NCBI GenBank assembly: GCA_034780895.1 | Contig: JAUZTB010000068.1 | Coordinates: forward strand, 24,437,013-24,501,012 | Length of the DNA: 64,000 nucleotides | DNA from: Rhynchobatus australiae | Lineage: Eukaryota | Direction: 5' to 3' | Part shown: positions 7,497-59,460 of the stretch, in pieces | Layout of the letters: each line of letters starts with the position of its first letter | How positions within the stretch are numbered: the stretch's first letter is position 1 | Notes under the pieces: generated by a model | What the model saw: only the letters and a program-made list of their open reading frames with translations | Databases searched by the model: none | Told to the model about the DNA's origin: nothing | Translations under genes and position numbers: made by a program

Positions 7497-7628
7497 GGAG
7501 ACACAAGTGATGGCAGATGGCAAAAAGCAGTCGAGATGAAGGGTCTTGAGCTGAAATGTTGACTGGCCATTTCCCTCCACAGATGCTGCCTGACCCACTG
7601 AGTTCCTCCAGCAGTTTTTTTTTGCTCC
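7497..7628 (+). mobile_element. Penelope-terminal short unit with hammerhead-like motif
   Basis: cagtc-gagatga-agggtcttgagct-gaaa-tgtt-gactg followed by ccacagatgctgcctgacc..ctgagttcctccagca; recurs about 10 times in the window. Confidence 0.7.
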
Positions 7629-7651
7629 CCCTTATCTTGTAGCCTCATAAC

Positions 7652-7954
7652 GCCGGCATGACTGTGTAGCGGTTAGCGTAACGCTATTACAGTGCCAGCA
7701 ACCCGGGTTCAATTCCGGCCGCTGTCTGTAAGGAGTCTGCACGTTCTCCCTGTGTCTGCGTGGGTTTCCTCTGGGTGCCCCAGTTTCCTCTCACATTCCA
7801 AAGACGTACTGGTTAGGAGCTGTGGGCATGCTATGTTGGTGCCGGAAGAGTGGTGACACTTATGGGCTGCCCTCAACACATTCTCAGTAGTGCAAAAAGA
7901 TGCATCACTGTGTGTTTTGATGTACATGTGACTAATAAATAAATATATTATCTT
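7652..7954 (+). mobile_element. Full-length V-SINE with Rex1-like 3' tail
   Basis: A-box-like tagcggttagcg, B-box gggttcaattcc, V-domain gtctgcgtgggtttcctctgggtg, tail tcactgtgtgttttgatgtacatgtgactaataaa. Confidence 0.85.
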
Positions 7955-8109
7955 AATGTGTTCACTCTTATGTTCCTATTAACTTCCCTCTTTATGTCAA
8001 ATATTTCTCCCACGTCTTCCAACAGGCAGTCTACTGTTGCCAATTAACCTGGTAGCACAACTTTGGGATGTGGAAGGAAACCCACATGGTCACAGAGAGA
8101 ACATGCAAA

Positions 8110-9518
8110 CTCTGCAAAAAAAAAATAGTGGAGTTGTGGATAGTGAGGGAAGTTGTCAAAGGATGGATACAGCAGGATATAGATGTTAGAACTATGGGCA
8201 GAAAAATGGCAGATTAAATTTAATCTGGACGAGTGTGAGGTGTTGTACTTTGAGAGGTCAAATGTAAGAGGAAGGTATACAGTAAATGGCAGGGTAAGGC
8301 AGTGGATGTTTTCTATTTGAACTTTTAGCAAGGCCTTTGAAAAGGTCCCACATATTGGCTGATCTGGAAGGGTAGTCCCATGGAATCCAGGGAGAGCTGG
8401 ATAGATGGATTCAAAATTGGCTCAGAGGTTCGGAGGTAGGACGCAGAGGGTGGTGGTTGAAGGTTGTTTCTCAGAATGGAGGCAAGTGATTAGTGGTGTG
8501 CCGCAGGGGTCAGTGTTGGGACCCTTGTTATTTGTTATTTATATAAATGATTTGAATGCTAATGCACAAGGCTGGATCAGTAAGTTTACGAATAATACGG
8601 AATTAGGTGTTGTTGATGGTGAAGAAGGTTATCGTCTATTACAGGGGAATCTTGATCAGTTAGGGAAGTGGGCCTAGGAGTGGCAAATGGATTTCAATAC
8701 AGATAAATGTGAGACGATGCATTTTAGAAAGTCAAACCAGCATACACTATGAATGGTAGGGCACTAGGAAGTGTAGTGGAACAGAGGGGCCTAGTACAAG
8801 TGCATAATTCATTGAAAGTAGTGTCACAGGTAGATAGGGTGGTGAAAAATGCATTTAGCATGCTGGCCTTCATCAGTCAGGGCATTGAGTATAGGAGTTG
8901 GGACATTATGTTGCTGTTGTATAAGTCATCGGTGAGGCCGCACTTGGAGTACTCTGTACAGTTTTGGTCACCCTGTTATAGGAGAGATGTGGTTAAACTG
9001 GAAAGAGTGTAGAAAAGACTTACTAGGATATTGCTAGGACCAGAGGGCCTGAGTTATAGGGAGAGGTTGGCCAGGCTAGGTCTTTATTTCTTGGAATGCA
9101 GGAGAATGAGGGGTGACCTGATAGAAATGTTTAAAATTATGAGAGGAATGTTCATAAAATAATGAAAATTATAAGGTGGATGGTAACAGCCTTTTCTCCA
9201 GGGTAGTTGAGTCCAAAAAGAGGGGCCATAGGTTTAGAGTGAGAGGGGAAAGATATAAAAGGGACCTCAGGGGCAACTTTTTCACGCAGAGGGGGTAAGC
9301 ATATGGAATGAGCTGCCAGAGGAGGAAGTGGTTGAGGCAGGTGCAATTGTATCACTTAAAAAGCACCTGGATAGGTACATGGAGGGGCGGGGCTTGGAAG
9401 GATATGGGCCGAATGCAGGAAATTGGGACTAGCTGGATGGGCACTGTGGTTGGCATGGACTCACTGGGCCGAAGGGCCTGAACCTGTGCCATATTGCCCT
9501 ATGATTCTATGACTCTAT
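8110..9518 (+). mobile_element. CR1 LINE, RT to 3' tail (composite of two fragments)
   Basis: [43 protein letters not shown]; tail gggccgaagggcctg...ctatgattctatgactctat. Confidence 0.9.
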
Positions 9519-9519
9519 T

Positions 9520-9730
9520 AGTGAAGTGGTTGTCGTCCAGAAACATGGGAGCTACAGTGTGCACAGCAATCACCAAAACAGCAATGTCACACTGACTGAA
9601 AATTCTATTTTAGTTACACCGATTGGGTAATAAATATTATCCATCATAAACAAACAAACTCAATTCCCCTTCTCATGCCAAGGGACCTTTCACAAATGCC
9701 TGAGCAAGTAGACAACACCTTGCTTTAAGT
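9520..9730 (-). mobile_element. Deu-domain SINE fragment
   Basis: Reverse complement resembles the Deu body (cccttggcatg...aatatttattacccaatc...acattgctgttttgg...gctgtgcac). Confidence 0.5.
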
Positions 9731-9879
9731 TTTCTGATCTTATATTAGTGGAGATAATTCAAAGGTAATACATTTGTTTGGAGGTATGAAGGTCATTAAA
9801 ACTAGTAAAACAATGGGGAGCTTTATTAGTTTATATCTATCGTACTCTCATACAATCTCCAATTTAAAAATAGGCTCAG

Positions 9880-10010
9880 AACCTGGGCGTTAACACCTTG
9901 GATGACCTGTTCTGGGCCCAACACAGAGGTGCAGTGATGTAAAAAGCACGCCAGTGCCTCTACTTTCTTAGAAGCTTAAAGAGATTTGGCATGTCACCAA
10001 ATACTCTACC
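9880..10010 (+). mobile_element. Rex1/Babar fragment running into a gap
   Basis: Encodes KARQCLYFLRSLKRFGMSPNTL, a typical Rex1 post-RT motif. Confidence 0.75.
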
Positions 10011-10699
10011 NNNNNNNNNNNNNNNNNNNNNNNNNNNNNNNNNNNNNNNNNNNNNNNNNNNNNNNNNNNNNNNNNNNNNNNNNNNNNNNNNNNNNNNNNN
10101 NNNNNNNNNNNNNNNNNNNNNNNNNNNNNNNNNNNNNNNNNNNNNNNNNNNNNNNNNNNNNNNNNNNNNNNNNNNNNNNNNNNNNNNNNNNNNNNNNNNN
10201 NNNNNNNNNNNNNNNNNNNNNNNNNNNNNNNNNNNNNNNNNNNNNNNNNNNNNNNNNNNNNNNNNNNNNNNNNNNNNNNNNNNNNNNNNNNNNNNNNNNN
10301 NNNNNNNNNNNNNNNNNNNNNNNNNNNNNNNNNNNNNNNNNNNNNNNNNNNNNNNNNNNNNNNNNNNNNNNNNNNNNNNNNNNNNNNNNNNNNNNNNNNN
10401 NNNNNNNNNNNNNNNNNNNNNNNNNNNNNNNNNNNNNNNNNNNNNNNNNNNNNNNNNNNNNNNNNNNNNNNNNNNNNNNNNNNNNNNNNNNNNNNNNNNN
10501 NNNNNNNNNNNNNNNNNNNNNNNNNNNNNNNNNNNNNNNNNNNNNNNNNNNNNNNNNNNNNNNNNNNNNNNNNNNNNNNNNNNNNNNNNNNNNNNNNNNN
10601 NNNNNNNNNNNNNNNNNNNNNNNNNNNNNNNNNNNNNNNNNNNNNNNNNNNNNNNNNNNNNNNNNNNNNNNNNNNNNNNNNNNNNNNNNNNNNNNNNNN

Positions 10700-10905
10700 C
10701 CGTGTCTGCATGGGTTTCCTCTGGGTGCTCCGGTTTCCTCCCACATTCCAAAGATGTAAGGGTTAGGAAGTTGTGGGCCTGCTATGTTGGCACTGGAAGC
10801 GTGGCGACACCTGCGGGCTGCCCCCAGAACACTCTACGCAAAAGATGAATTTCATTTTGTGTTTCGATGTGACTAATTAAGATATCTTATCTCTCTCATC
10901 TTATC
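10700..10905 (+). mobile_element. V-SINE 3' part, same subfamily as 7652-7954
   Basis: Closely similar to 7750-7950; ends gatgtgactaattaagatatcttatc. Confidence 0.85.
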
Positions 10906-11194
10906 TGTGTTCTTGTAGCTTCAATCATGAAGATTGGTGAACTGTCCATCACAGCCGAGCTCTGTTATACCACATGATTTCCCTCTGAATCCCAAAGATG
11001 AGTAAAAGTAGTTGCAAAATGCTTGTTACTGTTGGTGAGGAGTTTTAAAGCACTATGTCGTCATGGAAATGTTTCCTTGGATAAGGATGTCATGTATGAA
11101 AGCGTGATGCCCAGTTTAGTGCAGGGTGTGGAGGGAATGCAGCTTTTGAAAGTGTGCTGCTATGCCACATCAGAACAGTGGGAACAATTATTAT

Positions 11195-11465
11195 GTGGTA
11201 ACATGTTCACTGAAATCCTTTCCAGAGGCCAGGCCATTGATCTGGAGACATGAATTTGAATCCCACCAGGGTAGCTTAAATCTAGATAATTAAGTACATT
11301 TGAAATAAAGAACTGGCTTCACTAATGGTGAATATAAAGCCGCATCATCATCATAAAAGGCATTCATTTCAGGGGAAGAAATCTCTCAGCCTTACCCAAT
11401 CTGGCCTACATGTGATTCTGTATTTACAGCAGTGTGATGATTACCTGTCTTTTGAAGTGACTCAG
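11195..11465 (+). mobile_element. Decayed tRNA-derived SINE of a third family
   Basis: tccagaggccagg...ttgaatcccacca head; ggaagaaatct...ccttacccaatctggcctacatgtga body. Confidence 0.5.
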
Positions 11466-13239: not shown

Positions 13240-14125
13240 ATTATGGAGAATGGAAGAGTAGACAGCCAGTGCCTCTTTCCCAGGGCACCAATGCTCAAGA
13301 CAAGAGGGCATGGATTTAAGGTTATGGGTGGGAAATTCAGGGGAGATGTCAGAGGGAGGTTTTTCACCCAGAGTGGTTGGTGCATGGAATGTGCTGCCTG
13401 GGGTGGTGGTGGAGGCAGATACGTTGGACAGGTTCAAGAGATTTTTGGATAGGCATATAGAGGAATGTGGAATAGAGGGATATGTGGGAGGAAAGGGTTA
13501 GATAGTGTGAGGGTTGCTTTGATGGGTGGCACAACATGGTGGGCTAAAGGGCCTGTATTGTTCTATAAGTCCCCATGGCCTGACAGAATATTCCCCAGAC
13601 TGCTCTGCGAGGCAAAGGAGGAGATTGCTGAGCCTTTGACTAGGATCTTTGAGTCCTTGTTGTCCATAGGAATAGTACCAGAGGATTGGCAAATGTTTTC
13701 CCCTTATTCAAAAAAGGTGGTAGTGATAGTCCAGGGAATTATAGACCAGTGAGCATAACATCTGTGGTAGGTAAGCTGTTGGAAAGGATTCTTAAGAGAT
13801 AGGATCTATGGGCATTTAGAGAATCATGGTCTGATCAGGGACAGCTAGCATGGCTTTGTGAAGGGCAGATTACATCTCACGAGCCTGATAGTGTTCTATG
13901 AGGAGGTGACCAGACAGATTGAGGGTAGTGCAGTAGATGTGCACTTATTTAGTGCAGTAAATGCTGCTTTCTACAGGCAAGCCAATTCTAATTTCACATG
14001 GACAAGCCTCCCTGGATCCCATGGCCTCTGACCTTCTGCAGAAGCCTGGCATTTGGAACCTTGTCAAATGCCTTGCTAAAATCCATGTAGACTACATATA
14101 CTGCACTACCCTCATCAATTCTCCT
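13240..14125. mobile_element. CR1 cluster: 3' end (+, 13240-13565), RT segment (+, 13565-13940), inverted RT segment (-, 13960-14125)
   Basis: TRGHGFKV.GGKFRGD; KSPWPD.IFPRLLCEAKEEIAEPL...VPEDW; minus strand IDEGSAVYVVYMDFSKAFDKVP. Confidence 0.85.
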
Positions 14126-14127
14126 GG

Positions 14128-15065
14128 CCGTGGAGGAGGCCAAGGATTGACATATCAGTGAAGTGGGAGGAGGAGATGGTGACTGGCAACAGGGAGATGC
14201 AGATCGTGGGTATGGACAGCGTGCAGGTGTCTGCAAAGCAGTTGTCTAGTCTGTGTTTGGTCTCACCAATGTAGAGGAGGTCATACTTAGAGCACCAAAT
14301 GCAATAAATGATACGAAGGGAGGTGCAGGCGAATCTGTCTCAACTGAAAGGACTGTCTGGGTTCCTGGTTAGGGGTGGTGTGGAGGAAGTGTTGCATCTG
14401 TGGCAGGGGCAGTGGAAAGTTCGTGGGATGGGTTGAGTGGGGTGGGGGGAAGAGTGAACTGGGCAGTCACAGAGGATCCCTGTGAAAGGCAGAAAGGGGT
14501 GGGGAAGAGAAGATATGCTTGGTAGTGGGATCCTGTTGGAGATGTCAGATGTGTTGGATTTGTAGGTTGGTGGGATGAAATGTGAGGACAAGGGGGACCC
14601 TATCCCTGTCGGGTCTGGGAGGGGTGGAAGTGAGTGGAAGTGCAGGAAATGACAGATATGGGTGCGAGCTCTCACAGTTGGGGGGGGGGGTGGAAAGCCC
14701 CAGTTAGAAAAGAAGTTGTACATCTTGGATGTCCTGGAGTGGAAAGCCTTGTCATGGTAGCAGATGTGGTGGAGATAAGAAATTGAGAAAAAGGATAGCG
14801 TCCTTTCAAGAGACAGGGTGGGAGGATCTATAATTGAGGTAGCTGTGGGCGTCAGTGGGTTTGTAGAAGATGTTGGGTGGATAAGGAATCTCCTGAGATG
14901 GAAAGATTGAGGAAGGGGAGAGAGGTGTGAGAGATAGTCCAAGTGAATTGGAGAGCAGGGTGAAAATTAGTGATGAAATCTATGAAATTGTCGCATTCTG
15001 CATGGGTACAAGAGGTGGCACAAATGAAGTCATCGATAGAGCAGAGAAAGATTTGCCAGAGGAAG
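14128..15065 (-). mobile_element. Penelope-like element: RT C-terminus plus GIY-YIG endonuclease, decayed
   Basis: SIDDFI...NFHPALQFTWTISHTSLPFL.LSISGD (PLE RT), FHSRTSKM..FF..WGFP, and IYCIWCSKYDLLYIGETKHRL at ~14310-14245 (GIY-YIG). Confidence 0.88.
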
Positions 15066-20110: not shown

Positions 20111-20244
20111 GTCTTCCAGATGAAGGGTCTTGACCCAGAATGTTGACTGTCCTTTTCCCTCCACAGATGCTGCCTGATACAGAGTTCCTCCAGCACCTTG
20201 TTTTTTTGCTCCAGATTCCAACATCTGCAGTCTCTTGTGTCTCC
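20111..20244 (+). mobile_element. Penelope-terminal short unit with hammerhead-like motif
   Basis: cagatga-agggtcttgaccc-agaa-tgtt-gactg...ccagattccaacatctgcagtctcttgtgtctcc. Confidence 0.75.
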
Positions 20245-20814
20245 ACTGGAGAGATTGCCCAGTGTGCAAGCTTAGGACATTGTTGACTCGACAAGAGAGA
20301 ATGCCATTTAACCTTCTGTCGCAGCCTTTCATTCAGCACATTCACCTGTGGTCCACATTCACCCATCCGGACTGCTCCATCAATTGGCCTTGGGCATCAG
20401 TTTAAAGCCAACTCATCCAGGGCAAGAGCTTCCCATTGTTCATCAAGGATAGCCATAACAAAAATCAAAATGAAAGGGAGCAAGCGTCCAGCAGTTATAC
20501 TGCTGCCATAGAGGCAACACTGCAATATTACCCCAGGATGACTGAATCCACCAATAAGATTGTGAAAAGAAAAAAGGCACCAAGGTGCTTAACTCTACAG
20601 ACAAACGTTATAATAGACTGTTCATGTATTATTTGATTCTGCTTTGACATAAATGATTCTCAATACAATATATAACATTCAGATACATTCTCACTGAGTT
20701 CACAATACATGTTTTAGTGCGCACAGATAAGAAAGGTTGGTGTGGCAGGTGCTGGCATCATTGTCTACCCCAAAATGTCTCAGCTGGAGGGGTTGCCAGC
20801 ATCATGCACCTCAT

Positions 20815-23845: not shown

Positions 23846-24384
23846 ATGCAGGTAGTCCCTCTAAATATGTGATATACATATGACATATGGCTACGTGCAT
23901 AGAGAGAATTGAATAAATAATATGCATGAGTTTTAGCAGCTCTCCGTGTCCTTTGTGATTCAATATATTTCAGGTACTATAAGCAGTTAGGAGCAGGAAC
24001 CACATGGACATTATAAATTGGTAATGAGGATTAAAGTGTAGGGCATGTGTGAAGAGGAAAGGCGAATGGACTTTGTGTGGAAAAGAATGGACTTTGAGTC
24101 AAGCAAGAAGAGACTTACCTGCAAATGGATGGCACTGGTGACCATAGGGGCCATGTGAGGAAGCTGCAGCAGTGTTGAAATTAGCAGCAGCTAACCCTGA
24201 GCGAGCACTGGCAACTGTGGACATGGGAGGGAATGCTGGCAAAAACTCCAGGTGAGAATGGGGAGCAAGATTGCTTCAGACATTCCTGGCAGGTAATTAG
24301 GGAACAGACCAACACAACTGTTGCAGAGAAAATTCATGCCATACAGTTACATTGGGGTAAAACTAATTTGTTTCTCTTGCTCAT

Positions 24385-24480
24385 TCTGACAAAGGGTTTT
24401 GAACCTGAAATATTAACTCTTTCCCTTTCCACAGATGCTCCTTGTTTCCAGCATTTTTCACATTTCCAGCATCTGCCTTA
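24385..24480 (+). mobile_element. Penelope-terminal short unit, degenerate
   Basis: ctgacaa-agggttttgaacct-gaaa-tatt-aact...tccacagatgct. Confidence 0.6.
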
Positions 24481-25293
24481 TTTTAAATTTCAATCAACTT
24501 ACAGTGTGACTGTGCAATGGGAATTGTACAGAATTCTTGACGGATGCAACAACATTGTGAAGAAAGGTATTGCGGACTTCCCCACACTGGCATATGTACT
24601 CATCATTTCCAAATATCCAGCCATGAAAAATAGATCAGGAATGGGGAAAATAGTATCAATATTTATAAAAATATTTCTACTGGCAAGAGTGATTATTTTT
24701 TCATAATGGTCGTGCTGATTTGTCTTGAGGTCTCAACCAAAGTATGTGTGGCGTTCATGATGACGGTACACATTGAGGCTTCAATTTCCAACCAGTCTGA
24801 TTTAGGCTTGTTTGGATGTCTTGTCTGGTTTTACAGTATCTGCTTCTCATCCTCTATTTGTTGTACTAAGCGATTGCTCTGTTTGCAGGTATATTATGAT
24901 TAAATGGTAGAAAGATCAATGTATTTCCAGAATGTTGTCACAATGTTGAGCAAAGAGCAAGCTCACAGAGAACCCAAATGCGGCACACTGGTACAAGACT
25001 GGAGTCAGGATNNNNNNNNNNNNNNNNNNNNNNNNNNNNNNNNNNNNNNNNNNNNNNNNNNNNNNNNNNNNNNNNNNNNNNNNNNNNNNNNNNNNNNNNN
25101 NNNNNNNNNNNNNNNNNNNNNNNNNNNNNNNNNNNNNNNNNNTCTCTGGGAAGAAACTTTGGAATAAGACATATAGTTCATCTGCTGACTGGCTTTCTCT
25201 CTGCTTCAGAGAAACAAGCAGAGAATTATCAGTTTTCTAAAGGAGGAAAGAATTTTGTTCTTTCTCAGATTAATAAAGGTTAAATAAGACACA

Positions 25294-28550: not shown

Positions 28551-29348
28551 TTACATTGAAGAAAGATTTGGGGCTGAAGCATGAATGAAGTCCAATGATT
28601 TCCCATTTTGCATGTAATTTGTATGAGTCAAGCTGTGGCCANNNNNNNNNNNNNNNNNNNNNNNNNNNNNNNNNNNNNNNNNNNNNNNNNNNNNNNNNNN
28701 NNNNNNNNNNNNNNNNNNNNNNNNNNNNNNNNNNNNNNNNNNNNNNNNNNNNNNNNNNNNNNNNNNNNNNNNNNNNNNNNNNNNNNNNNNNNNNNNNNNN
28801 NNNNNNNNNNNNNNNNNNNNNNNNNNNNNNNNNNNNNNNNNNNNNNNNNNNNNNNNNNNNNNNNNNNNNNNNNNNNNNNNNNNNNNNNNNNNNNNNNNNN
28901 NNNNNNNNNNNNNNNNNNNNNNNNNNNNNNNNNNNNNNNNNNNNNNNNNNNNNNNNNNNNNNNNNNNNNNNNNNNNNNNNNNNNNNNNNNNNNNNNNNNN
29001 NNNNNNNNNNNNNNNNNCTGGGTGCTTCACATGATACTTTCTCTCTTTGTCTTTTCTGTAGGCGACGTGCATCACCACCAATAAGGAAGGTGTAGAGATG
29101 AAGATCAATTGCAAAGCCCAGAGCCTGATGTGGGAGATGGGGAAATAGTGGTCGAAACAGACATTGGTGCAGCCAGGTTGCTTGGTGTTGCAGTCAAAAT
29201 CTTTCTGATCATCACCCCATACTTTCTCTGCCGCCACTACATAAACTAACACTCGGAAGATGAAGACAACCGACAGCCATATCCGACCAAATCCTGTGGA
29301 ATATTTATTTACGCCACTAAGGACACCTTGCAACGTCTTCCAGTCCAT
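28551..29348 (-). CDS. GJB3: Gap junction beta-3 (connexin 31)-like protein, ~265 aa; TM3-EL2-TM4 hidden in the N gap 28642-29017
   Basis: MDWKTLQ...[56 protein letters not shown] and the C-terminus ASAPNL closely match recalled mammalian Cx31; the frame is preserved across the gap. Confidence 0.92.
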
Positions 29349-29374
29349 ATTATCTGGCGGTATTAACGTTCAAT

Positions 29375-32642: not shown

Positions 32643-32775
32643 TTTCCGGATGAAGGTTGTTGACCAAAAGTGTTGCCTGTCCATTTCCCTCCACAGATGC
32701 TGCCTGACTATTGAGTCCCTCCAGCAGTTTGTCCTTTTGTCCCAAATTCCAGGATCTGCAGTCCCTTCTGTCTCC
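32643..32775 (+). mobile_element. Penelope-terminal short unit
   Basis: cggatgaaggttgttgacc...tccctccacagatgctgcctgac...ttccaggatctgcagtcccttctgtctcc. Confidence 0.7.
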
Positions 32776-35700
32776 ATTTCATCTTCCTTTGTTTGGGAGC
32801 AGTAGGTAGTTAGCTTGTGACCTCATGAGAATTACAGGCTGCCCCATGGTGCTGTATTGCTTCTTTGGCATTTGAAGTGAGCCAGGGAAAGGATTATAAC
32901 CAAAAACAAATTCTGATTCCTCACCTAGCTGGTGCGTGACCATACACAGAACATCATGCAGATCATTGCCTGGTTTATTTTCCCCTGTTACAGTGCCTTT
33001 ACTTTGCGCCAGTTTGTATTTGAGCTGTACCACAAAACCAAAGGGTGGCTGTCAAGATCATAACAAATGCCATACTGCTGCATTAACTGATATCACAGGT
33101 CACTTGCATTCAATAGCTGCCTAGGTCTCTCTGAAGAACCTTGCTCTAAGAAGTAAGAAGCTCTAAGGTGAGCTGCTAGATTTTGCACAACCTCCTCATC
33201 ATGGGGCCTCAGAACTTACAGGCAGCTATAAGGTGAACAGCTCTGAGGGAGGAGAGGAATGAAGTAAATAAGAAAGGAGGAAACCTAAACAGTCCCCTAT
33301 CATGCAGGTTCAAGATCAAATCATTTGACTTCACTGCCAATAAACACAACTTCAATTCCCCACTCACCAACAAACCCATACCTCATCTTTCCTCAGTCGT
33401 TCACCATCATTGGCTGAATTCTTAAAGTAAAGCCCCAAAACAAATATTCTAAGTCTACTTTATTAATCAAAGCTTAACATATTTACAATGGCAACTAATT
33501 ATTCTTGTGCATTCCGTCTATGTTGTTGTGTGCCTTTTCATGGCCTTGTGTTCCCACTCTATACTACTCTATAGGTTGCAAAAGGGGCATTGCAAGATCT
33601 TGAATGATGATTTTGCAGAGCTCTGGTCCTAGAAGACCCTAGCTTTGGACCACACCTTCTCAGCAGGAGCTGCAGCTTTCTGGACTTGCTGGTTGTCAGA
33701 CAACTGCAAAGGTTCCAGTGGAATGATACGGGAAGATCACAAATACACTGATCCTGAGAGAGGGATCAGATTCATGCTGTGTAGAATCACCATCATCTTC
33801 TGAAGGAATGCCTCAGTAACCCTCAAAGGGTAGGATTGTGTTATTGGGAAGTCAGGAGAAAAATAAGAATTACATGCTTATGTCACTGGCAAAAGATAAA
33901 TCAGATTAGGTTGTGGTAGAGATGGGATGTGAAAAAGTGGATTTCTTATGTTTAATGGTCTCAACTTTGTTGCTGGCTCAAGACTTCATAATAAATGCTC
34001 CAATTATGGTGACTATTCTCTCTGCCACAGCCCCCTACACCACACTGTCTGTCCCTCTCTCCACCTCCTTCCTGTGAACTGCTGCTCTTGGTATCGTTGT
34101 CCCTTATTCTACAAGAATGTTAGACGTGTTGGTGAGTAGTGGTCATGAATTTAGGAGATGTACTTGTTCTATTTGAATATTTGTGAAATTTGTGAAAGCT
34201 ATGAGATATAGGCTTGAGATTTTCAGCAGTGCTAGGTGTCAGCAGGTGTGATAGAATTCATGAACATTTGACTTGAGCCTTATCAATAGTGTTCATTGAT
34301 AGGTGAATGTTGAAAATGTGGAATATTGAGTGTCCTAATGGTGCACTTGATAGGATTCTTTGTACTGGACCACAAGGTCAAAGTCATTAAACCTTTTGCA
34401 GCTTTACGTTCACATCTTGAGGTCATGGCTTCTGACATTCACTTCCACAACTACCTCCTCACACTGTGAATACAGAACATTCCTCTCCACCTCTTAAACC
34501 AAGACCTCCAGTGCAAAATCAGAATAATACATAGACTATTTTCTCCTGTGATATGCCACAAGCTATTTGGCAGGTCCCACCCATGAGCAACTCGTCTTTA
34601 AGAAGTATAGGTTGACTAAGAAATAAGTAGTCTAAGATAGCTTGTACTGGTGCTTGCCACTCATAAAGCTAAGACCCTGCAGAGGCATTTGGCACTTCAG
34701 AATCTTGTTAGCGTTATACTGAATAGTCATTACATATTGGTTATTGTGCCCTTAATGTATCAAAAGGGTAACAGTTAATTCAACATCAACATCCCCTTNN
34801 NNNNNNNNNNNNNNNNNNNNNNNNNNNNNNNNNNNNNNNNNNNNNNNNNNNNNNNNNNNNNNNNNNNNNNNNNNNNNNNNNNNNNNNNNNNNNNNNNNCA
34901 TCCCCTTTTCCAGGCACTTTCCATTTAGCCCCAAAGTATGCATTCAGAGTTAGATTGAACTCTGGTGCAAAATTAACTCTAAATATCCAAGACTGTTAAT
35001 TTTCCTGTAATTCTATCCAACATTGTTCTCAAGAGATAATCTCTCTGCCTTCCATTAATGTCTGTTCTCTGGAATGGAGAAAGAGTCTGTGGCAATTAGT
35101 TATAGACCAGACTGTAACCGGTAGACAATTATAACTAGAGAAAAGCAAGAAGTAGAATCTTAGGGACAAAGGTCAGCCATTCAGCTCATTGGCCCTGTTC
35201 TGCCAATCAGCTAGATTGCAGCTGATCCATATCTCAACCGTTTTCACCTGATGTTCCTCAAATATAAGTTCATATGGCAAGGTGAAATATGGTGGCACTG
35301 CTGGAATTTCCAATAACTATGATTAAAACCAAGTTGAAATCCAGGCAATCAACCTTGTTTGAAATAACTGCTGCAAGCTTATGATACATAACTAAGATTA
35401 TAACATGTTTTATAAATGGCAGATGTTAAATACCAGATAAACATTCTTCCTTATTTGTGTTCTCCATTGAGAAAGTATTTCATTCTTTGCTTTCTAAACA
35501 ATTAATAGTGTCTCAAATCATTTGATCCTGGCAAACTTTGCTTTCTTGACAAGCCAGTGATATATTTAGCTAACAAACAAATGAAGCTGCTAGCCAGTTG
35601 GAGGAACCGACAAACATTAGGTAATAAACATATAAACTAATGAATCATTAACCAAAGAATTAAAATCTCAGACTCAAAGATCTGTTAATCTGAAGGAAAT

Positions 35701-36889
35701 TAATTTGTAGGCTTGATTTATTCATGCTACATTTAAGTATTGTCCATTGCTTTTGTCCATTTGCTGTAGGGAAAGTGTCTATTAATTATATTTGGGGGAA
35801 ATATCATATATATCTTATTTTACCACATACCACTGATTTTTTTAAGCATCTGACTTTCAAGACTGAATTGAAATTTGGTATATCTTCATTGAGGCTGTGA
35901 TGTCAAACTATGAGTATGGCCTTCCTTCCATTTTCCAGCTTTTTAATTATACTGTATTGTCTGCTTCCATCTCTAAGCCACTAGCTGTTGAATGCTTCAA
36001 ACCTCTTCTGAATGATATGCAAGGCACTCTCAGTAATTGTGACTTCAATCTCTCCAAGATCTTTCTCTCCTTGTGGAACCACAGACACAGCAGACAAGGA
36101 AGCTATTCTACTCAGTATATCCATGCTGGATGCCAATGCTTCTCCCCTGATGTTTCCTCCCTTGCCTATTTGTTTATAACTGAAGATTTGTCAACAGTAC
36201 ACATCTTGATACCCTCCAGGGGTTTACCTTAGCTCTTTCTTATTCCTCAAGCTGGCCTTGACAACATCTACAGAAATGGAAGGAGGTTCCCTGTGAACAC
36301 TTACACCAGCCAGTTCAGCCTCTCCTCCATTTTTCAATCCCTTCACCAGCTTTACCACTTTGCTTGTCCAAGATGTGGAGTGGTATGTGTCTTAACTTTC
36401 TCCAGGCTGTGAAGTGCAAAGCCATCAACTTTACATTTTAGCTACCAATCTATTTCTCTCCCTAGCTAGTTTTGTTTTAAAAATCCAGAGCAGACTGGTC
36501 AGTGTTGACGTCTTATTCAAACATGAACTTAACTTTTGACCCAGGCCACCTTCATCATGAGGACTACTTACTCCTACCTCTGTGAGACTGCCCACTTTGG
36601 CCTCTGTGTCCAGCCATCTGCAGATGAAACCATCATGGAAGTGCCTCTAAACCCAAATACTTTAATCTTCTTCCTGTCAGTTTCTCCTCTTCCGCACTAT
36701 AAGCTTAAATTAATTAAAAATCCACAGCCAATGTCATATCTTGGATCAAGTCCTGCCCAAGCATCATACTATAATTACCAATGTACGTTAGCTGCTATAC
36801 TTCATTGAAAGTTGTTGCCATTGTCTTTAAACCCTTTAAATGTGTTACTGCTCTTGATATCTGTAGCTTTTTCAGCCCAGAACCCTTCC

Positions 36890-36990
36890 TACATGACTGT
36901 TTACTTCCCTCCATAGATGCCGCCTGACCTGCTGCAGGCAAATAGGATNNNNNNGTGTGTTGCAGCATTTGCAGAATCTCTTGTGCCTTC
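36890..36990 (+). mobile_element. Penelope-terminal short unit, partial
   Basis: gactgtttacttccctccatagatgccgcctgacctgctg...gcagaatctcttgtg. Confidence 0.6.
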
Positions 36991-40299: not shown

Positions 40300-40445
40300 A
40301 GATTGCTTTCATCAGCAGCCCACCCCCCAAGCCAACAATCACCTCAGGCTCCTGACTCACCACTGCCCCTCTCCTCCTTATACTGGCCATCTTCCTTCTC
40401 CACTCTGAGTCCTGATGCAGGGTTTCGACCTGAAATGTTGAAGAC
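40300..40445 (+). mobile_element. Penelope 3'/pLTR fragment ending in a hammerhead-like motif
   Basis: Pyrimidine-rich lead-in, then gagtc-ctgatgc-agggtttcgacct-gaaa-tgttg. Confidence 0.65.
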
Positions 40446-44561: not shown

Positions 44562-45219
44562 NNNNNNNNNNNNNNNNNNNNNNNNNNNNNNNNNNNNNNN
44601 NNNNNNNNNNNNNNNNNNNNNNNNNNNNNNNNNNNNNNNNNNNNNNNNNNNNNNNNNNNNNNNNNNNNNNNNNNNNNNNNNNNNNNNNNNNNNNNNNNNN
44701 NNNNNNNNNNNNNNNNNNNNNNNNNNNNNNNNNNNNNNNNNNNNNNNNNNNNNNNNNNNNNNNNNNNNNNNNNNNNNNNNNNNNNNNNNNNNNNNNNNNN
44801 NNNNNNNNNNNNNNNNNNNNNNNNNNNNNNNNNNNNNNNNNNNNNNNNNNNNNNNNNNNNNNNNNNNNNNNNNNNNNNNNNNNNNNNNNNNNNNNNNNNN
44901 NNNNNNNNNNNNNNNNNNNNNNNNNNNNNNNNNNNNNNNNNNNNNNNNNNNNNNNNNNNNNNNNNNNNNNNNNNNNNNNNNNNNNNNNNNNNNNNNNNNN
45001 NNNNNNNNNNNNNNNNNNNNNNNNNNNNNNNNNNNNNNNTCTCCAGTAGCACTGACCTTCTTCTTCTCAAAGTCCTGGCCCATAGTTCCATGCCACTTGC
45101 TACAGATCAGATTTTAATAAAATACTTCTTTCCTTCCATTCTTATAGTATGTCCAGGATCAACAATTTCAGCAACTCTTAAATTCAAACACTCCTCCACA
45201 TCCTCTGTACCCGTCTCTT

Positions 45220-46780
45220 GCTTCTGACACTATCATCCTCAACCCCTCAACCCCTGCTTGTGTTTTCACCGTCCCTTCTAACCTTACCCTTACTGGTGTT
45301 AAATGATCAGCAGAGACCTCAGCTTCATTCCCAAATATCCCCATCAGATGAACTTAGAGCGTAACATGATATCAAGCTCCTCTTCTGCCGCCTTTGCCTA
45401 AATGCTGATTTCTTTGGCCATACGGTGGATCCTTTCTCCTGCCTTCAGAATCCCCAAACCACCCCAGCCTCTCCCTTTGGTCTCTTAATCCTTTCCAGAT
45501 CTATTCATCACTAACTGGTGATGGTGCATCGATCATCTCAATTTTTCCAAAACCAAGCTGCAGGTGCTTTTAGTTAAAAAAAGGAAAATACTTGCCTTCT
45601 TCTCATTGCTGTCATTAGGGAGGAAGTATGGAGCCTAAAGATGCACACTCAGTGATTTAGGAACAGCTTCTTCCCCTCCACCAACAGATTTCTGAACGGC
45701 CCATGAACCCATGGACATGACCTCGCTATTCCTTTTTTTTGCACTATTTATTTATTTTGTAATTTATAGTAATTTTATGTCTTTGCACTGTACTGCTGCC
45801 GCAAATCAACAAATTTCACGACATATATGTCAGTGATAATAAACCAGACTCTGATAGTCCGCAGATCCGACAGCATCTCAAGAGAAAGAAGTAGAATTAG
45901 CATTTCAATTTGATGACATTTCATCAGAAATGAAAGTTCAGTATCCTGAAGCATAAGCTCTATTTTTGTCTCTCCACAGTTGTTGCCTGACTGGCATTTT
46001 CTGTTTGGATTTAAACTTTTTCACTTCATTTACTCACTCTAGTCTACCCCCACTGAGCGTCCAGCACCCTGCTCACTGACAACTAATTCTAACATTATCA
46101 TTAAAATTGCTGACAAAGCCACATTGATGTTGCATGGTGTATCATCCAGAGGAAAATAACTCCTCATGCTTCATTAAGCCATAACCCCACTAACAACACA
46201 TCAGACCCTTGTTTCCCCAAACCGTTACTGGCCCCATCTTCCTTCATAGCCTCCAATCTCATAGTCATCAAATAATTCAGCCTGTTTCAATATCCTTTAT
46301 AAAGTGCACAAACAGAATAGCTGCAGTTTATTCAACATATCAGCCTATTCTCGTCTCAAAGAATTTACTTCCTTCTACTAGAACTGCTTTCTTTCTCCTT
46401 TTTATCAAGTCTCTAACCACCCATACCTCTGAGGCACCACCTTAAAAGCTTTCCATTCCCTCTGGCCATCCAGGTGTAAGATGGAGATGAGCTTGCTGAT
46501 TGAATGGTTGCACCAGGATGGCTTGTGAACCCTCCAGCTACTTCCCTCTACCAGCTACCCAACCAGTACATCCCCTCACTCTCTCTAAACAATCCCACCA
46601 GCAGCACCCACTCTTGCCTGTTCTCATATTGAAAATCTCCTTTAATAAAAATAGGTAAAATGCTGGGGGAGACAGGATGCCCACATACCCATGCCTTCTG
46701 GAGGTCTGCCTATTTCCTTCTTTGCAACATTACCCAACTTTGCCACTACCTCTGCTTATTTTCTGCTAAAATTCTCATCC
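45220..46780 (+). mobile_element. Old Penelope element (N-terminus and RT remnants) interrupted by a Rex1 tail (45600-45855) and an inverted terminal-unit pair (45860-46020)
   Basis: LSFIP...LLFCRL.L.A.FF at ~45320-45420; NSNIIIKIADK at ~46085; Rex1 tail aacagcttcttcccc...gtcagtgataataaacc. Confidence 0.6.
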
Positions 46781-49723: not shown

Positions 49724-49870
49724 GGGGCGGCACGGTAGCATAGTGGTTAGCACAACACTATTACAGCACCAGCGACCCGGGTTTGATTCCCACCGCTGTC
49801 TGTAAGGAGTTTGTACGTTCTCCCGTGTCTGCGTGGGTTTCCTCTGGGTGCTCTGGTTTCCTCCCACATT
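49724..49870 (+). mobile_element. V-SINE head inserted in the RTE element
   Basis: ggggcggcacggtagcatagtggttagc...gacccgggtttgattccc...gtctgcgtgggtttcctc. Confidence 0.9.
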
Positions 49871-52339: not shown

Positions 52340-52715
52340 GATTTAAGCTATGATGGGTGATTTCATTGAACTCTGCAAAACTCCTGCAGGGATTGACACG
52401 TCAGGTGCATGAATGATATTTCCCCTGGCTGAGGAATTTAAAACCAGGGATCACAGTCTTAAAATAATTGATCAACCATTCAGGACAGAGATCAGAAGAT
52501 GTTTCTTCACCAAGAGGATAGTGAGTCTTTTGAATTCTCTGTCCAAGAGGGTTGTGAGGGCTCAGAACTAAATATGTTCTGGACAAGGTTTGACAGAATT
52601 TTGGATTAGTGCAGGAAAATGACACTGAGGTGAAAGATTAGCTGTGATCTTAATGAATGGTGGGTATGAGGGGTTGAATAGCCAATCTGTGTTTCTATTT
52701 CTTATGTTCTTCATA
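52340..52715 (+). mobile_element. CR1-type 3' end
   Basis: aaaccagggatcacagtcttaaaata...tttcttcaccaagaggatagtg...ttcttatgttctt. Confidence 0.75.
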
Positions 52716-54635: not shown

Positions 54636-57539
54636 ATAGATAATAATAAGCAACCATGAGAAACAAAGGCATTGTGCATTAAAATGGCTTCTGTGACTAA
54701 TGGTGAAACTCCCATCCAGTTCTTTTCAGATTGAAAAAGGGAGTATCCGACATTACATTGAACTGAGTGGATGGAAAATTGCTCTAAGCTTCAGAAAAAC
54801 ACGTCATGCATTTAAATGAAGATTTTACCTCTTTCTGCTAACACTGCTAAAATTCCTGCTGGTAAAGCAAAGCAGTGCTGATCCATTTACTTCGATATCT
54901 TGTGCTTCTAGCATTTGCTCCACTCATTCACCACTGGTCCCATTGTCTTTGATTGACAGAACTGGTTTTAACCACTTCTCTCTCCATCTCAGGAGGAATG
55001 TTGTGTGAGAGGCATTAAAATCTAAAGATTATCCTTTCTGGCTCTTAACAACTGCCTTCCAGGTTGTTTACATGATTATGATCGTAAATCATCAACAAAA
55101 TGCCTGCAACAGATCAGGAGTTTAGTGAACATTGAAAAACCACAACAGATGCCACATCTGAAAATTGGTGAGAGCAGCCAGCTGCCAAAGGTGTTAAAGA
55201 AATAATTTGTTGAGAATTCTTTCTTGGCCTGGAGCAACAGGAATACTCCACCCAAAGGTCTCCCAAGACCACATCTTGATCCTGTTGGACCTTTTTCCTC
55301 ATGATGAAGGACCACTCCTCCAGGTCTCTGCCTATTGGCAGCTGCTGTCAACTGAACAGGTGGATGATCTAGTTGGGTGTCAGGATTACATGAGAAGTAA
55401 ATGAATACTTGCCAGATTAGTATTCTGTTTCTTAGCTCCTCTGCATGTTCCTGTTTCCCAATGACATTCAGATCTCTCGCGTTCTGTTCTGCATTGATAG
55501 CTCTATACACGCTATCACCACCCAACAACCATCACTCCCTGACCTCAACCACCAGATTGCTCTGTCCCATTCAAAACAAAGCTAAGACAAAATATGCTGT
55601 CTGTACTTGAACACCCACATGGAGTCCAGGAAATTGATGTCTATCCTAAAGGGGTTGCTTTTCACTCTGTGATTTTCTCTCACATTTTTTTGGAGAATTC
55701 TGCTTGGTGTTTCTGACACTCCAGTAAAGTGGAAAGCTCATTATATGAGGTTATTGTAGAGAAGGGCTTATTCTTCTTTATACTTACCAACAGGGTTCAC
55801 TTAGCTTGTAGCAGAGCCTTAGTCATGATTCTTCAATAGTGAACCAGGCAATTTCTCATTTTCAAACACCAGGACCAAAATAATCACCTCTTCCTTATGA
55901 GCCTTCTTCTCAGTTCAATTGTGGTGGTCTGGCAACCAATAGTAACTTTCTTTCATTCACTTTCTTCTAACTTCATGTGTTGAAGTGCAGATCTACTTTC
56001 AGGTCAGGAATTCTCCAATTCATGGGACACCATATTCTTAGTTCAATGTGCTGAATGGTCAGTTTGTCTAATCACTTTCATAGCTACCCAGAATAATGTG
56101 GCAACAGTAAAGGTGTAACAGTACAAAAGGCATTCTTAAATCCAAGCAATATTCTAGGTTGTGTACTTTGTGTTTTTCACCAAACTCTCTGACCCAAGAG
56201 CAACACTGGCAAAATCTTCAAAAACACATCAAGTATACTTGCATCAAAGAATAACTACAAAGAAAGCTATTTCTTTCCACTCAAGTACAAGCCTTGCCCT
56301 ATGTGATGTTCTCAACTGACTGAGAACTAGTGGAATCTAAGAATAAAGGTTTATAGGTTTTGCTAAGGCATGATGTATTGTAGCACAGAGTCCAGTGCCC
56401 ACTGAGTGTTGTGTCCACGGAATGTGGACTTTAGAAAGGGATGATTAATTTTATATATTTAATTTTTTAATTAACTATTAGATCCTCTTAACCTTGAGTT
56501 TTCATTTGCAGTGGTAAACAAGTTGTATAAAGTGGTAAGCAACTAGGCTGCAGCTTGCCAGTTAATGGGCAACCAGTTAGGGTGGAAGTCACCTGAATCA
56601 GATCCAGTGAAACCCAAGAATATATATTTGTGNNNNNNNNNNNNNNNNNNNNNNNNNNNNNNNNNNNNNNNNNNNNNNNNNNNNNNNNNNNNNNNNNNNN
56701 NNNNNNNNNTAGGGATAATGGTGTTGCGCTATGTTTGAAGAAATATGTATATTACATTTTAAAATAAGACAGGTGTACAGGTGGTGTGAAAACCAATGTG
56801 ATGTGACCACACCTGCAGTAAATGTCCACAGCACAAGCAAATTCAGCTCCGGGTTGATGAGTTGGAATCTGATTCTGCGGATGTGATTCATCAGGAAGAG
56901 GGAATGTTACCTGAAAACTTGTTCCAGGAAGAAGTCGACATCCTCACATTAGGTATTGCAGAATTGATCAGTCCTGAGAGACAGGGAGGTGTAACTATGA
57001 ATTAAGCAAGTATGAGGATCCAGAAGGTCACATTGGAGCAACTTGTTCTTGCCCAGCAACTCTGCAGAATATGTGGAAAGTACAGGAACTGTCGGGACAA
57101 TGAGTAAACTTACCACAGCACCATGGTACAGGGAGTTGTACAGATTGGGGGAAGTGAAAAGAGATGGAGTGATGATCGAGGGGAGTATGGTTGTTCTCTG
57201 CAGTTGTAAGTGTGACTTCTGAAAGCTTTCTTGTTTGCTCAGTGCTGGGGTTAAGGACATTTCCTCAGAGCTCTGGAGGACCAGGGTTGGAGGGGAAAGA
57301 CCTGGTTGTTCTGGTCCATTTGAAAACNNNNNNNNNNNNNNNNNNNNNNNNNNNNNNNNNNNNNNNNNNNNNNNNNNNNNNNNNNNNNNNNNNNNNNNNN
57401 NNNNNNNNNNNNNNNNNNNNNNNNNNNACCTCACAATGAGAACCATGAATGAAGTTCTCTTGAAAGGGTCTGACCAACTAGGGTCCAAATTTTAAAAAAA
57501 TGCAGAACCACAAAGGTAACAATCTCTGAATTGAAAATT

Positions 57540-57665
57540 AAAAACTGCAGATCCTGGAAATCTGAAATAAAATAGAACTTGCCGGAAATACTCAGCAGGT
57601 CAGGCAGCATATGTGGAAAGAGAAACAGAGTTAAGTTTCAGGTCAAAGACACTTTGTCAGAACTC
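57540..57665 (-). mobile_element. Penelope-terminal short unit with hammerhead-like motif
   Basis: Minus strand gagtt-ctgacaa-agtgtctttgacct-gaaa-ctt-aactc, then tccacatatgctgcctgacctgctgag. Confidence 0.75.
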
Positions 57666-58589
57666 GTAATCTCTGGATTATAACAGGGCCACATACATGG
57701 GCTCAACAAGATCAAAGAGTTGAATGTGTGGCTCAGAGATTGGTGTGGGAGGGATGGGTTTCATTTGATGGGGTGCTGGAACTAATGCTGGGGAACAAAG
57801 GAGCTGTTGTCTTGGGGCAAGTTTCAAGCAAACTGTTTTAGGATCCAGATTGCAACGAATCAAGTAACTGGGAGCGTATAATGTACACTCGCAGTTTAAA
57901 TTAATGGTATGGAGGGTAGGGTAGGCAGATAGTACAGAATAGAGAAATGGGTAATGATAATCAGAATCTGTCAGGAAGACATCATATTCAAACATGAAAT
58001 TATACCTGGAATTAGAATCAGAGCAGGGAAAATGGTAAGAAGGCATGACTAAAGGTTCTTCATCTGAAAGCATTTAGCATTCCTAATAAGACAGATGAAT
58101 TAATGGAACAAATAGAAATAAATGGTTATGATCTCATATCCATTACAAATACATGATTGCAAAATGACCAAGGCTGGGAATTAAATAATACAGGATACTC
58201 AACTTTTAGAAGAGGGGCAGGCAAATCAGAAGAGAATAAGGACTAGCCTTAATAATAAAGGCACTGGAGAAAAGGAACATAGATTAGAAAATCAAGAAGT
58301 AGAACCAGTTTGGGCAGAGGTAAGAAGCAGCAAGAATAGCAGCAAGACCCCCAAACAGCAATGATAAAGTAGCTCATTATGCATATCAGGATATTAGAGA
58401 TTCATGTACCAAGGGTTAGATGGTACTCATCATAGATTCAATCTACATTTAGACTGGGCAAACCGAAGTCTCATTAGTAGTCTGGAGATCAAATTCACAG
58501 TGTGTATAAGAAATGGGTTTCCACATCAGTGGGTTGAAGGACTTCAGAACTGATATTACACAATGAGCAAGCATCTGATAATAATATGA

Positions 58590-58895
58590 AAAAAATACAG
58601 ATAATGGAAGTCTGAAACAAAAACAAAAAAGCTGGAAATACTCAGCAGTCCAGGCAGCATCTGGGAAAGTGGAAAACAGTTAATATTTCAGGTTAAAAAT
58701 ACTTCTTCTGAAAAGAACAAGGGAGAAAACACATCACTACTGAAAATTAATGTGTTTTCCCTCTTTCTCAACTCTGATGAAGGGTCTTGGACCTGAACCA
58801 TTAACTATTTTCTTTCCACAGATACTGTCTGACCTACTGAATGTTTACAGTATTTTCTTTTTTGTTTCAATTTTCCCTCATCAATGGATTTTTGA
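58590..58895. repeat. Head-to-head inverted pair of Penelope-terminal units (~300 bp imperfect palindrome)
   Basis: Left arm is the reverse complement of the unit; right arm begins ctgatgaagggtcttggacctgaac; the centre gaaaacacat...atgtgttttc is self-complementary. Confidence 0.75.
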
Positions 58896-59354
58896 TTTTC
58901 ATGTTTTAAATGAAAATGAGTTATTTTCAGGTTTTGAAGTTATAACAAGCGGGGAGCCACAGGGATCAGTTCTTGGGCTGTTCACAATCGACGTCAATGT
59001 TTTGGATCAGAGAATCAGGTGAAAAATGCAGAGAGGCTTCAGAGGGAAGAGATGAGCTAAGTGAATGGGCTACCACAGAGCAGGTGGAAAATGAGGTGAT
59101 AAAATATGAAGTCATCCACTTTGGAAGAAAATAATAGAGAAGCAGAGTACTTTTTTAAATGGTGAGAGACTGAAAATTGTTGGTATTCAGAGGGTTATAA
59201 ATGAATCATTTAAGGTTAATGTGGAGGTGCAGCAGGTTTTAAGATGACAAATGGTCCATTCACTTTTATTGCAAGAGGAGTTGATAAAGTCTTCTGACTC
59301 TGATTACGTAAGGTGCTGGTAAAAAGAGACTTGGAAATCTCACAATCAAAATCA

Positions 59355-59460
59355 AACATCCTGTGTATGCTGAAAATCTACAATAAAAATGAAGGAATGC
59401 TGAGCAGGTCAGACTGCATCTGTAGAAAGAGAAACAGAACGAATGTTTCAGGTTGAAGAA
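59355..59460 (-). mobile_element. Penelope-terminal short unit
   Basis: gagcaggtcagactgcatctgtagaaagagaaacagaacgaatgtttcagg. Confidence 0.65.

What the first reader, a model, noticed from the sequence alone, without database searches (positions are those of the whole stretch)
7528..59460. Dispersed ~130-bp Penelope-terminal units carry a minimal hammerhead ribozyme fold with covarying stem I
Seen: about 10 copies (7497, 20111, 24385, 32643, 36890, 40405, 45860, 57540, 58590-58895 twice, 59355). Together they give stem I-CTGANGA-stem II (GGGTC..GACCC)-GAAA-YGTT-stem I'. Stem I is CAGTC/GACTG at 7528-7565 but GAGTT/AACTC at 57665-57628, a compensatory change at two pairs. CTGATGA is intact at 58774 and GAAA at 7553, 40432 and 57639. 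No single copy has a perfect core; several changes look like CpG decay. Established: Penelope-like elements carry minimal hammerheads with a tiny palindromic stem III that work as dimers. Coding Penelope relics lie at 14128-15065 and 45220-46780. Inference: at least two subfamilies of a non-autonomous, ribozyme-headed (retrozyme-like or solo-pLTR) retroelement spread at roughly one per 6 kb.
Basis: partly seen in the sequence, partly recalled or inferred. Interest (0 to 1): 0.7.

Follow-up and report, generated by a model that had tools for sequence, protein, structure and literature searches.

The report
Penelope leader stubs with hammerhead ribozyme
These ~130-base repeats are the ribozyme-bearing ends of ordinary Penelope-type jumping genes, and their shared start point with an extra G likely marks the capped, uncut front of the RNA that was copied, so the ribozyme is probably not needed for copying.

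Summary
The repeat is real: 12 copies in the window, 1 per 3.9 kb in 734 kb of unselected genome, none in a reversed control. It carries the known minimal hammerhead of Penelope-like elements (PLEs). It is not a retrozyme. It sits just downstream of PLE RT/GIY-YIG sequence (19 of 29 coding loci), runs on into the ORF start in three loci, and shows the known 30-40-bp tail and head-to-head pairs (19 of 22 classifiable pairs: one tailed arm, one untailed). Only the inner stem I pair covaries. 5' ends pile up at the first base of the ribozyme, about 30 bp behind a TATA-like box, with an extra G (21 of 83 versus 3 of 120 copies). There is no excess of ends at the cut site. Two large subfamilies amplified with altered cores (U4A, A9C). 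Best reading: dead copies of capped, uncleaved leader RNA made by autonomous PLEs. Cleavage and start site are untested. Earlier scan notes report this repeat in this genome and the start-site G in other genomes; I found neither the G nor the core variants in print.

The parts
7485..7497 (.). Left target-site duplication (13 bp, 2 mismatches) of the 7498-7628 insertion
   Evidence: (row L001)
7498..7519 (-). Short inverted arm made of the tail only (unit positions about +111 to +132)
7528..7628 (+). Untailed copy (-1 to about +101), subfamily A2 type; core reads GAGATGA (C3G on top of U4A)
7627..7639 (.). Right target-site duplication of the same insertion
   Evidence: (row L001)
14128..15065 (-). 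Broken PLE coding relic (RT thumb, linker, GIY-YIG); no unit attached to this copy
   Evidence: L081 no hit; tblastn E 6e-50
20115..20245 (+). Tailed copy from +3, subfamily A2 (U4A core)
24384..24484 (+). Decayed subfamily B copy with internal deletions
32645..32778 (+). Tailed A2-like copy from +3; an 11-12-bp TSD-like repeat flanks it (read by eye)
36870..36985 (.). Plus arm 36895-36985 starting at the predicted cut site (+33), joined through the stem I complement to a weak minus arm 36870-36899 that starts at -1
   Evidence: minus arm score 28, weak; the same junction class in 7 of 30 loci
40392..40441 (+). Subfamily C copy (A9C core) with upstream pyrimidine tract, cut off after +34
45195..45490 (+). 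Broken PLE N-terminal coding relic
   Evidence: (L293 and L296 carry this region about 1 kb upstream of RT)
45834..46012 (.). Old head-to-head pair (minus arm 45834-45932, plus arm about 45928-46012), B-type
57534..57664 (-). Tailed subfamily B copy starting at +1; the extra G at 57665 lies outside a TSD-like 12-mer (57668-57679 / 57521-57532, 1 mismatch, read by eye)
58586..58904 (.). Head-to-head B pair (minus arm 58586-58724, plus arm 58757-58904); both arms look tailed, an exception to the usual pattern
59345..59458 (-). 5'-truncated B copy lacking the first core box

Best explanation
The unit is the terminal repeat of autonomous endonuclease-positive Penelope-like elements, and the short dispersed copies are likely dead cDNA products made when the element's reverse transcriptase starts 95-132 bases into its own RNA and runs back to, or short of, the likely capped start of an uncleaved transcript. 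Shown: the unit is 132 nt with tail or about 95-100 nt without. It begins with a minimal hammerhead layout (+1 to +37, predicted cut after +32). It adjoins coding sequence on both sides. Copies often form head-to-head pairs with one tailed and one untailed arm. 5' ends pile up at -4..+5 with an extra G. Inferred: +1 (or -2..+1) is the transcription start; the G comes from copying the cap or is added at run-off; each strand of a double cut primes one cDNA from one of two start sites, and the two cDNAs join by short complementarity; ribozyme cleavage is not required, so subfamilies with U4A or A9C cores could amplify. Nearly all present copies are decayed and probably inert.
For: Linkage: 19 of 29 RT/EN loci carry the unit on the same strand 36-625 bp downstream. 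EN or RT hits lie upstream of 14 of 17 P, 11 of 123 A1, 5 of 84 A2 and 4 of 30 B-pattern copies (one of those four reads as A1 and one is not adjacent). The unit continues past the tail into N-terminal coding sequence in L292, L297, L300. Tail: bimodal 3' ends, as described in PMC11167929 and PMC8557442. Pairs: 60 of 186 unselected copies are in head-to-head pairs within 80 bp; long/short 19, long/long 3, short/short 0, 8 unclassified, p = 2e-4. One TSD flanks the pair in 11 of 25 rows of younger pairs, three loci counted twice, null 0.8%. Start site: hazard 0.035 per nt at -4..+5 against 0.002-0.015 in other bins in 90 copies picked by a mid-unit motif; 0.061 against 0.002-0.017 upstream in 148 copies; TTTATA/TTTATT at -31/-30. 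Extra G: 13 of 52 and 8 of 31 copies that start here against 2 of 84 and 1 of 36 that extend upstream, pattern-selected copies removed. No G excess at an internal boundary (23 of 87, my count; about 28% expected). An untemplated 5' G is attributed to cap copying for L1/SVA (PMC3287187, passages). No cut-site excess: 34 genome hits with a break at +33 against 87 at control +29, on a background of 4,699, about 0.012-0.016 against 0.014 per nt by my estimate; 7 of 30 read at +33 are stem I microhomology joins. In vitro, ribozyme mutants of the anole PLE still insert (PMC11167929).
Against: No RNA data fix the start site or the cap. C, the native base, is still the commonest base at -1 in copies that start here (31 of 52 and 18 of 31), so the start is heterogeneous or blurred by microhomology. 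The window copy at 40408 extends upstream yet has G at -1. Six ends fall at +31..+35 (p about 0.04), a weak hint of cleaved templates. In old unselected pairs a TSD was found in only 2 of 29 (null 1.1%). Subfamily C had no coding hit upstream in 8 copies. No intact full-length element was found, and Pfam support for RT is below cut-off (E 0.028 and 0.0024). About half the copies extend further upstream and are ordinary 5'-truncated insertions.
Confidence: 0.75

Rival explanations
1. A separate non-autonomous retrozyme-like element: the unit would be transcribed as multimers, self-cleave, circularise and be inserted by PLE proteins in trans.
For: Very high copy number of a short hammerhead-bearing unit. 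Retrozymes related to pLTRs exist in vertebrates, including one chondrichthyan (bioRxiv 2026.07.22.740005, passages and parts 1 and 3). Seven tandem neighbours within 400 bp; two tandem pairs about 170 bp apart are listed.
Against: Head-to-head neighbours outnumber tandem ones 33 to 7. Copies begin 32 nt upstream of the cut site rather than at it. Each subfamily tested except C adjoins coding sequence. Junctions differ between pairs.
Confidence: 0.07
2. The 5' pile-up marks a 3' splice site (pyrimidine tract + CAG) or a microhomology hot spot rather than a transcription start, and the G would be exon-derived or filler.
For: A pyrimidine tract ending in CAG precedes the unit. In D. virilis Penelope an intron ends at the 5' end of helix I (PMC4209133). 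The stem I strands give 5-nt complementarity that is used at some junctions. T precedes the G in many cases.
Against: No shared exon sequence lies upstream of copies that start here. Most ends keep the AG and often the C before it. A TATA-like box sits at -30. The pile-up also holds for single copies (11 of 18 ends have no partner arm).
Confidence: 0.13
3. The ribozyme does cleave the transposition template in vivo, and a minority of copies derive from the 3' cleavage product; U4A and A9C cores would be active with protein help.
For: Six ends at +31..+35 in 90 copies (p about 0.04). The window copy at 36895 starts at +33. The anole PLE ribozyme is protein-assisted (PMC11167929). A U4C viroid variant stays infective (PMC3088659, passage). 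Stems I and II are kept across subfamilies.
Against: Genome-wide break counts show no excess at +33 over +29. Breaks at +33 also occur in copies with A2-type flanks. The window case is a microhomology join.
Confidence: 0.15

Closest known systems
[quoted passage not shown]
   Same: CUGANGA box, one extra base before G10.1, G10.1-C11.1 in subfamilies A, C and P, palindromic 15.2-16.2 with no loop 3, short helix I, thousands of dispersed single copies, opposite-strand pairs, several consensus families per genome.
   Different: Helix II is 4-5 bp, not 7-8. Abundant subfamilies carry U4A or A9C, which the text read does not mention (it reports U3-A8). About 4.8e5 copies by extrapolation against 4,000-9,000 intact motifs reported for coelacanth and Xenopus.
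Poseidon_Ac (PAc) of Anolis carolinensis (Frangieh et al. 2024, PMC11167929; parts 1-2 of 4 read, supplements searched for 4 terms)
   Same: Hammerhead at the pLTR/ORF junction, two RT start sites bracketing a 30-40-nt tail, both target strands extended, uncleaved RNA as main template.
   Different: The linker here has a Cx4CxxC motif (Neptune/Nematis type, absent in Poseidon per PMC8557442). PAc showed no strand difference in start site in vitro, whereas genomic pairs here use one start site per arm. A start-site pile-up with extra G is not reported there.
EN+ PLE insertion structure: inverted 5'-truncated pLTR, one-sided tail, TSD (PMC3846280, PMC8557442, PMC8969392; passages)
   Same: Head-to-head arrangement, tail on one arm, 8-16-bp TSD, TATA/Inr-like motifs in the pLTR, ORF start inside the pLTR.
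   Different: Here both arms are usually under 140 bp, and the one-tailed rule is counted on a population sample.
Animal non-LTR retrozymes (bioRxiv 10.64898/2026.07.22.740005; parts 1 and 3 of 5 and passages; supplements not available)
   Same: Type I hammerhead, kinship to PLE pLTRs.
   Different: Retrozymes are defined by tandem units each with a complete hammerhead; these copies are single or head-to-head and adjoin coding PLE sequence.

Membership tests
Minimal type I hammerhead of PLEs | CUGANGA, GAAA and NUH boxes in register | tested here: met
   Met by the majority sequence of A1, B and P; A2 has U4A and C has A9C. 13 of 84 unselected near-full copies keep all boxes, 1 of 84 keeps boxes and all stems.
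Minimal type I hammerhead of PLEs | Helix II with an extra base before 10.1; palindromic 15.2-16.2 | tested here: met
   Helix II 86% paired in 66 rows; 15.2-16.2 splits into CG/TG/CA as expected for a decayed CG.
Minimal type I hammerhead of PLEs | Covariation in stems | tested here: inconclusive
   One clear two-sided change (stem I pair 1, C-G/U-A) and a G-C / G.U / A-U series at 10.1-11.1, each a single inherited event. Score 0.228, 10 of 500 shuffles as high; slid controls 16-37% paired against 78%. RNAalifold gave no consensus structure.
Minimal type I hammerhead of PLEs | Self-cleavage as dimer or with protein | not testable with these tools
   Folding of majority sequences pairs core bases in the monomer and prefers a stem II duplex in the dimer; this is a model, not an assay.
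Rfam hammerhead families | Match to a curated model | tested here: not met
   No hammerhead family at E <= 10 in the window or in 12 loci with undecayed core sequence.
EN+ Penelope-like element | RT followed by C-terminal GIY-YIG with two cysteines between the motifs | tested here: met
   The 381-aa open frame of L085 has YIDD and YCxxCxxCxxxYIG, read directly. RVT_1 only below cut-off and no GIY-YIG Pfam hit; no PDB hit.
EN+ Penelope-like element | pLTR at both ends of the ORF, optional 30-40-bp tail, inverted 5' copy, TSD | tested here: met
   No single intact full-length copy was seen.
Neptune or Nematis clade | CX2-5CxxC linker upstream of GIY-YIG | tested here: met
   Cx4CxxC in L085, L087, L093; definition from PMC8557442.
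Neptune or Nematis clade | Placement in an RT phylogeny | not tested
   No reference set was held; the clade call rests on the motif.
Non-LTR retrozyme | Tandem units, each with a complete hammerhead | tested here: not met
   7 tandem against 33 head-to-head neighbours among 186 unselected copies. Arrays elsewhere in the genome were not searched for.
Non-LTR retrozyme | Circular RNA and unit ends set by cleavage | tested here: inconclusive
   DNA ends show no excess at the cut site; RNA could not be examined.

The most novel reading that the evidence does not exclude
This genome holds a population-scale record of PLE insertion. A dimeric enzyme copies capped, uncleaved leader RNA from both strands of a cut, one start site per strand, and leaves a cap G. 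Its hammerhead is so dispensable for this that two subfamilies with non-canonical cores (U4A, A9C) each reached tens of thousands of copies; the U4A core also shows in four other sequencing data sets.
Probability: 0.5. Interest if true: 0.6.

Novelty: new member of a known kind. Interest (0 to 1): 0.36.

Why it matters
The ribozyme in Penelope ends, the tail and the inverted copy are all in print, so the finding as framed is ordinary. What may matter is mechanistic. How PLEs make head-to-head insertions, and what their hammerhead does, are open questions. The counts here give direct tests: one start site per arm, a start-site pile-up with an extra G, no excess at the cut site, and natural U4A and A9C cores in successful subfamilies. 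They predict the result of CAGE, of a capped-RNA reaction with PLE protein, and of cleavage assays on natural core variants.

Tried and rejected
Rfam scans found no hammerhead. RNAalifold found no consensus fold on 66 decayed copies. Pfam found nothing PLE-like in 12 frames of the window relics. PDB gave no hit. The protein atlas was not available for this sequence, so the clade call rests on motifs alone. No RNA holder listed; contigs of four coded runs cannot show starts, ends or expression. Rejected: the outer stem I pair as covariation (junction base). Rejected: GAGATGA as its own subfamily; it was enriched by searching with the 7528 copy, was absent from 84 unselected near-full copies and made up 3 of the first 100 exact matches. 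Rejected: a GTGTC stem II variant of B as a family trait, because it came from searching with the 57664 copy. Rejected: 45996-46780 as Penelope. Rejected: HHR-defined 5' ends. One search was meant for subfamily B but missed its 13-nt stem II and returned mostly A1 copies. One search failed on a script slip and was redone. PMC6431247, PMC10018344 and PMC3681739 (passages) gave nothing on an extra G in PLEs. Paper searches for a cap G or start-site pile-up in PLEs, for U4A and for shark Neptune elements found no report; the library lacks most subscription papers, and one supplementary file of PMC4209133 and all bioRxiv supplements could not be searched.
Full report
Observation. An iterated profile seeded on the 7528 copy finds 12 hits at 10 places in the window, aligned one by one. 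In 81 unselected stretches (734,177 non-N bases: the window, 20 flanking and 60 scattered 10-kb pieces) it finds 186 copies, one per 3.9 kb, and none in reversed sequence. Extrapolated, that is about 4.8e5 copies in the 2.23-Gb genome. The host looks like a shark or ray from its repeats; that is my inference, also made in earlier scan notes. Rfam has no hammerhead hit in the window or in 12 loci with undecayed cores.

Anatomy. Numbering from the A of CAGTC as +1, the unit is 132 nt with tail or about 95-100 nt without; 3' ends are bimodal. Positions -1 to +37 hold the minimal hammerhead of PMC4209133: stem I, CUGANGA, one extra base, stem II, GAAA, a CG palindrome, NUH, stem I'. The predicted cut is after +32. 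An ATG at +55 is in frame to the end of the tail and is the likely ORF start (my reading), which fits the 12 to 22 codons described for a rotifer pLTR and tail (PMC3846280, passages).

It is the end of a coding element. Searching with the 14128-15065 relic gave 29 other loci; 19 carry the unit on the same strand 36-625 bp downstream, and 4 of the 10 misses end in a contig end or a gap. L085 has a 381-aa open frame with YIDD, Cx4CxxC and YCxxCxxCxxxYIG, the linker and GIY-YIG layout of Neptune/Nematis PLEs (PMC8557442). Pfam RT support is below cut-off. The window relic matches that frame at E 6e-50. Of 10 other loci found with 45195-45490, three show the unit running past its tail into this N-terminal region and two show the region about 1 kb upstream of RT. 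EN or RT hits lie upstream of 14 of 17 P, 11 of 123 A1, 5 of 84 A2, 4 of 30 B-pattern and 0 of 8 C copies. The stretch 45996-46780 is not PLE-like.

Subfamilies and covariation. Clustering 373 near-full copies from all loci then held gives at least five types. A1 has a canonical core and GUC. A2 has U4A (68 of 95 in its cluster). P has N7 = A, GUU and a mismatch at stem I pair 4. C has A9C (25 of 31) and a 3-bp stem I. B has a 13-nt stem II, GUU, U-A at stem I pair 1 and G.U or A-U at 10.1-11.1. Among 84 unselected near-full copies, 16 have U4A and 18 have C at position 9. The U4A letter makes up 26-50% of depth in 4 of 4 coded runs laid, one of which may be the source. On a 66-row alignment chosen across subfamilies, 78% of cells pair against 16-37% in slid controls; the inner stem I pair reads C-G 35, U-A 17; the outer pair reads G-C once. 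Copies are old: median 11.5% non-CpG divergence, lowest 1.1%; 1 of 84 keeps all boxes and stems; 240 places match a 34-nt A-type core exactly.

Head-to-head pairs. Neighbours within 400 bp are 33 head-to-head, 7 tandem and 5 tail-to-tail. Of 30 pairs within 80 bp, 19 have one tailed and one untailed arm, 3 have two tailed arms, none has two untailed arms, and 8 could not be classed (p = 2e-4 on 22). One TSD flanks both arms in 11 of 25 rows of younger pairs (three loci appear twice; null 0.8%), including 13 bp around the 7498-7628 insertion. In older unselected pairs only 2 of 29 pass. An inverted copy with a one-sided tail is known (PMC8557442, PMC3846280). The anole PLE extends both strands and starts at two sites bracketing the tail (PMC11167929). 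I infer one cDNA per strand, one start site each, joined by short complementarity.

Where copies begin. In 90 copies picked by a mid-unit motif (the first 90 of 8,693 matches, all on one contig), 18 of 58 at risk end at -4..+5, 0.035 per nt against 0.002-0.015 in other bins. In 148 copies that include +1, the rate is 0.061 at -5..+1 against 0.002-0.017 upstream. TTTATA or TTTATT sits at -31/-30, and TCAGTCC fits the initiator consensus as I recall it. Base -1 is C in 2,750 exact matches and non-C in 639; the first 100 non-C read G 39, A 31, T 30 by my count. With those pattern-selected copies removed, G is at -1 in 13 of 52 A/C/P and 8 of 31 B copies that start here, against 2 of 84 and 1 of 36 that extend upstream; 17 ambiguous copies were set aside and 124 lacked a readable AGT or had N. 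At an internal boundary G is 23 of 87, the expected share (my count). For L1 and SVA an untemplated 5' G is attributed to copying the cap (PMC3287187, passages). Against: C remains the commonest base at -1, and the window copy at 40408 extends upstream yet has G.

The cut site. One search shows six ends at +31..+35 (p about 0.04). A genome-wide test did not confirm an excess: 34 matches break at +33 and 87 at control position +29, on a background of 4,699. After removing point changes and correcting for flank composition, my estimates are 0.012-0.016 and 0.014 per nt. Of 30 loci read at +33, 7 are joins to a partner that ends at +1 through the stem I complement; the window case at 36895 looks the same. 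Templates were thus mostly uncleaved, as found in vitro for the anole element (PMC11167929).

Verdict. The repeat and its hammerhead layout are real and belong to a known kind: the pLTR and tail of EN+ Penelope-like elements. A separate retrozyme is unlikely (0.07). The added value is the record of mechanism and the natural U4A and A9C cores. Paper searches found no report of either, within the limits of the library. Earlier scan notes, read after I had noted these ideas, report the same repeat in this genome and the start-site pile-up and extra G in other genomes; they are unchecked AI notes, not support. None named U4A. Cleavage, the start site and the cap remain untested.

Noticed in passing
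window 29019-29348 (-) and 1-195 (-): Two connexin coding starts 29 kb apart, 79% alike; Pfam Connexin E 6e-51 and 2e-27. A tandem gap-junction gene cluster is likely; the first is interrupted by an assembly gap.
   Followed up: partly
window 7654-7884, 10702-10835, 49728-49870 (+): A second dispersed repeat with a tRNA-like head, read by eye as a SINE; one copy starts 15 bp after the right TSD of the 7528 insertion.
   Followed up: no
window 1818-2192 (-), 8874-9493, 13255-13567, 62769-63373: Many LINE fragments; 1818-2192 hits RVT_1 at E 2.5e-7. CR1/L2 type by recall.
   Followed up: partly
unit +50 to +58 and +108 to +116 (majority sequences): The likely start-codon region is complementary to the middle of the tail, and the short 3' end falls in a U/G-rich stretch between them; this may shape the two RT start sites.
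   Followed up: partly
G000:C1:39771401 and 39771562; G000:C1:95408795 and 95408968: Same-strand A2 cores 161 and 173 bp apart: rare short tandems that could form the dimeric ribozyme.
   Followed up: no
L181:1583-1630: Copy with a local fold-back of its own 3' part right after position +84.
   Followed up: no
window 45996-46780: No match to any other locus held beyond 30 nt; identity unknown, not Penelope.
   Followed up: partly
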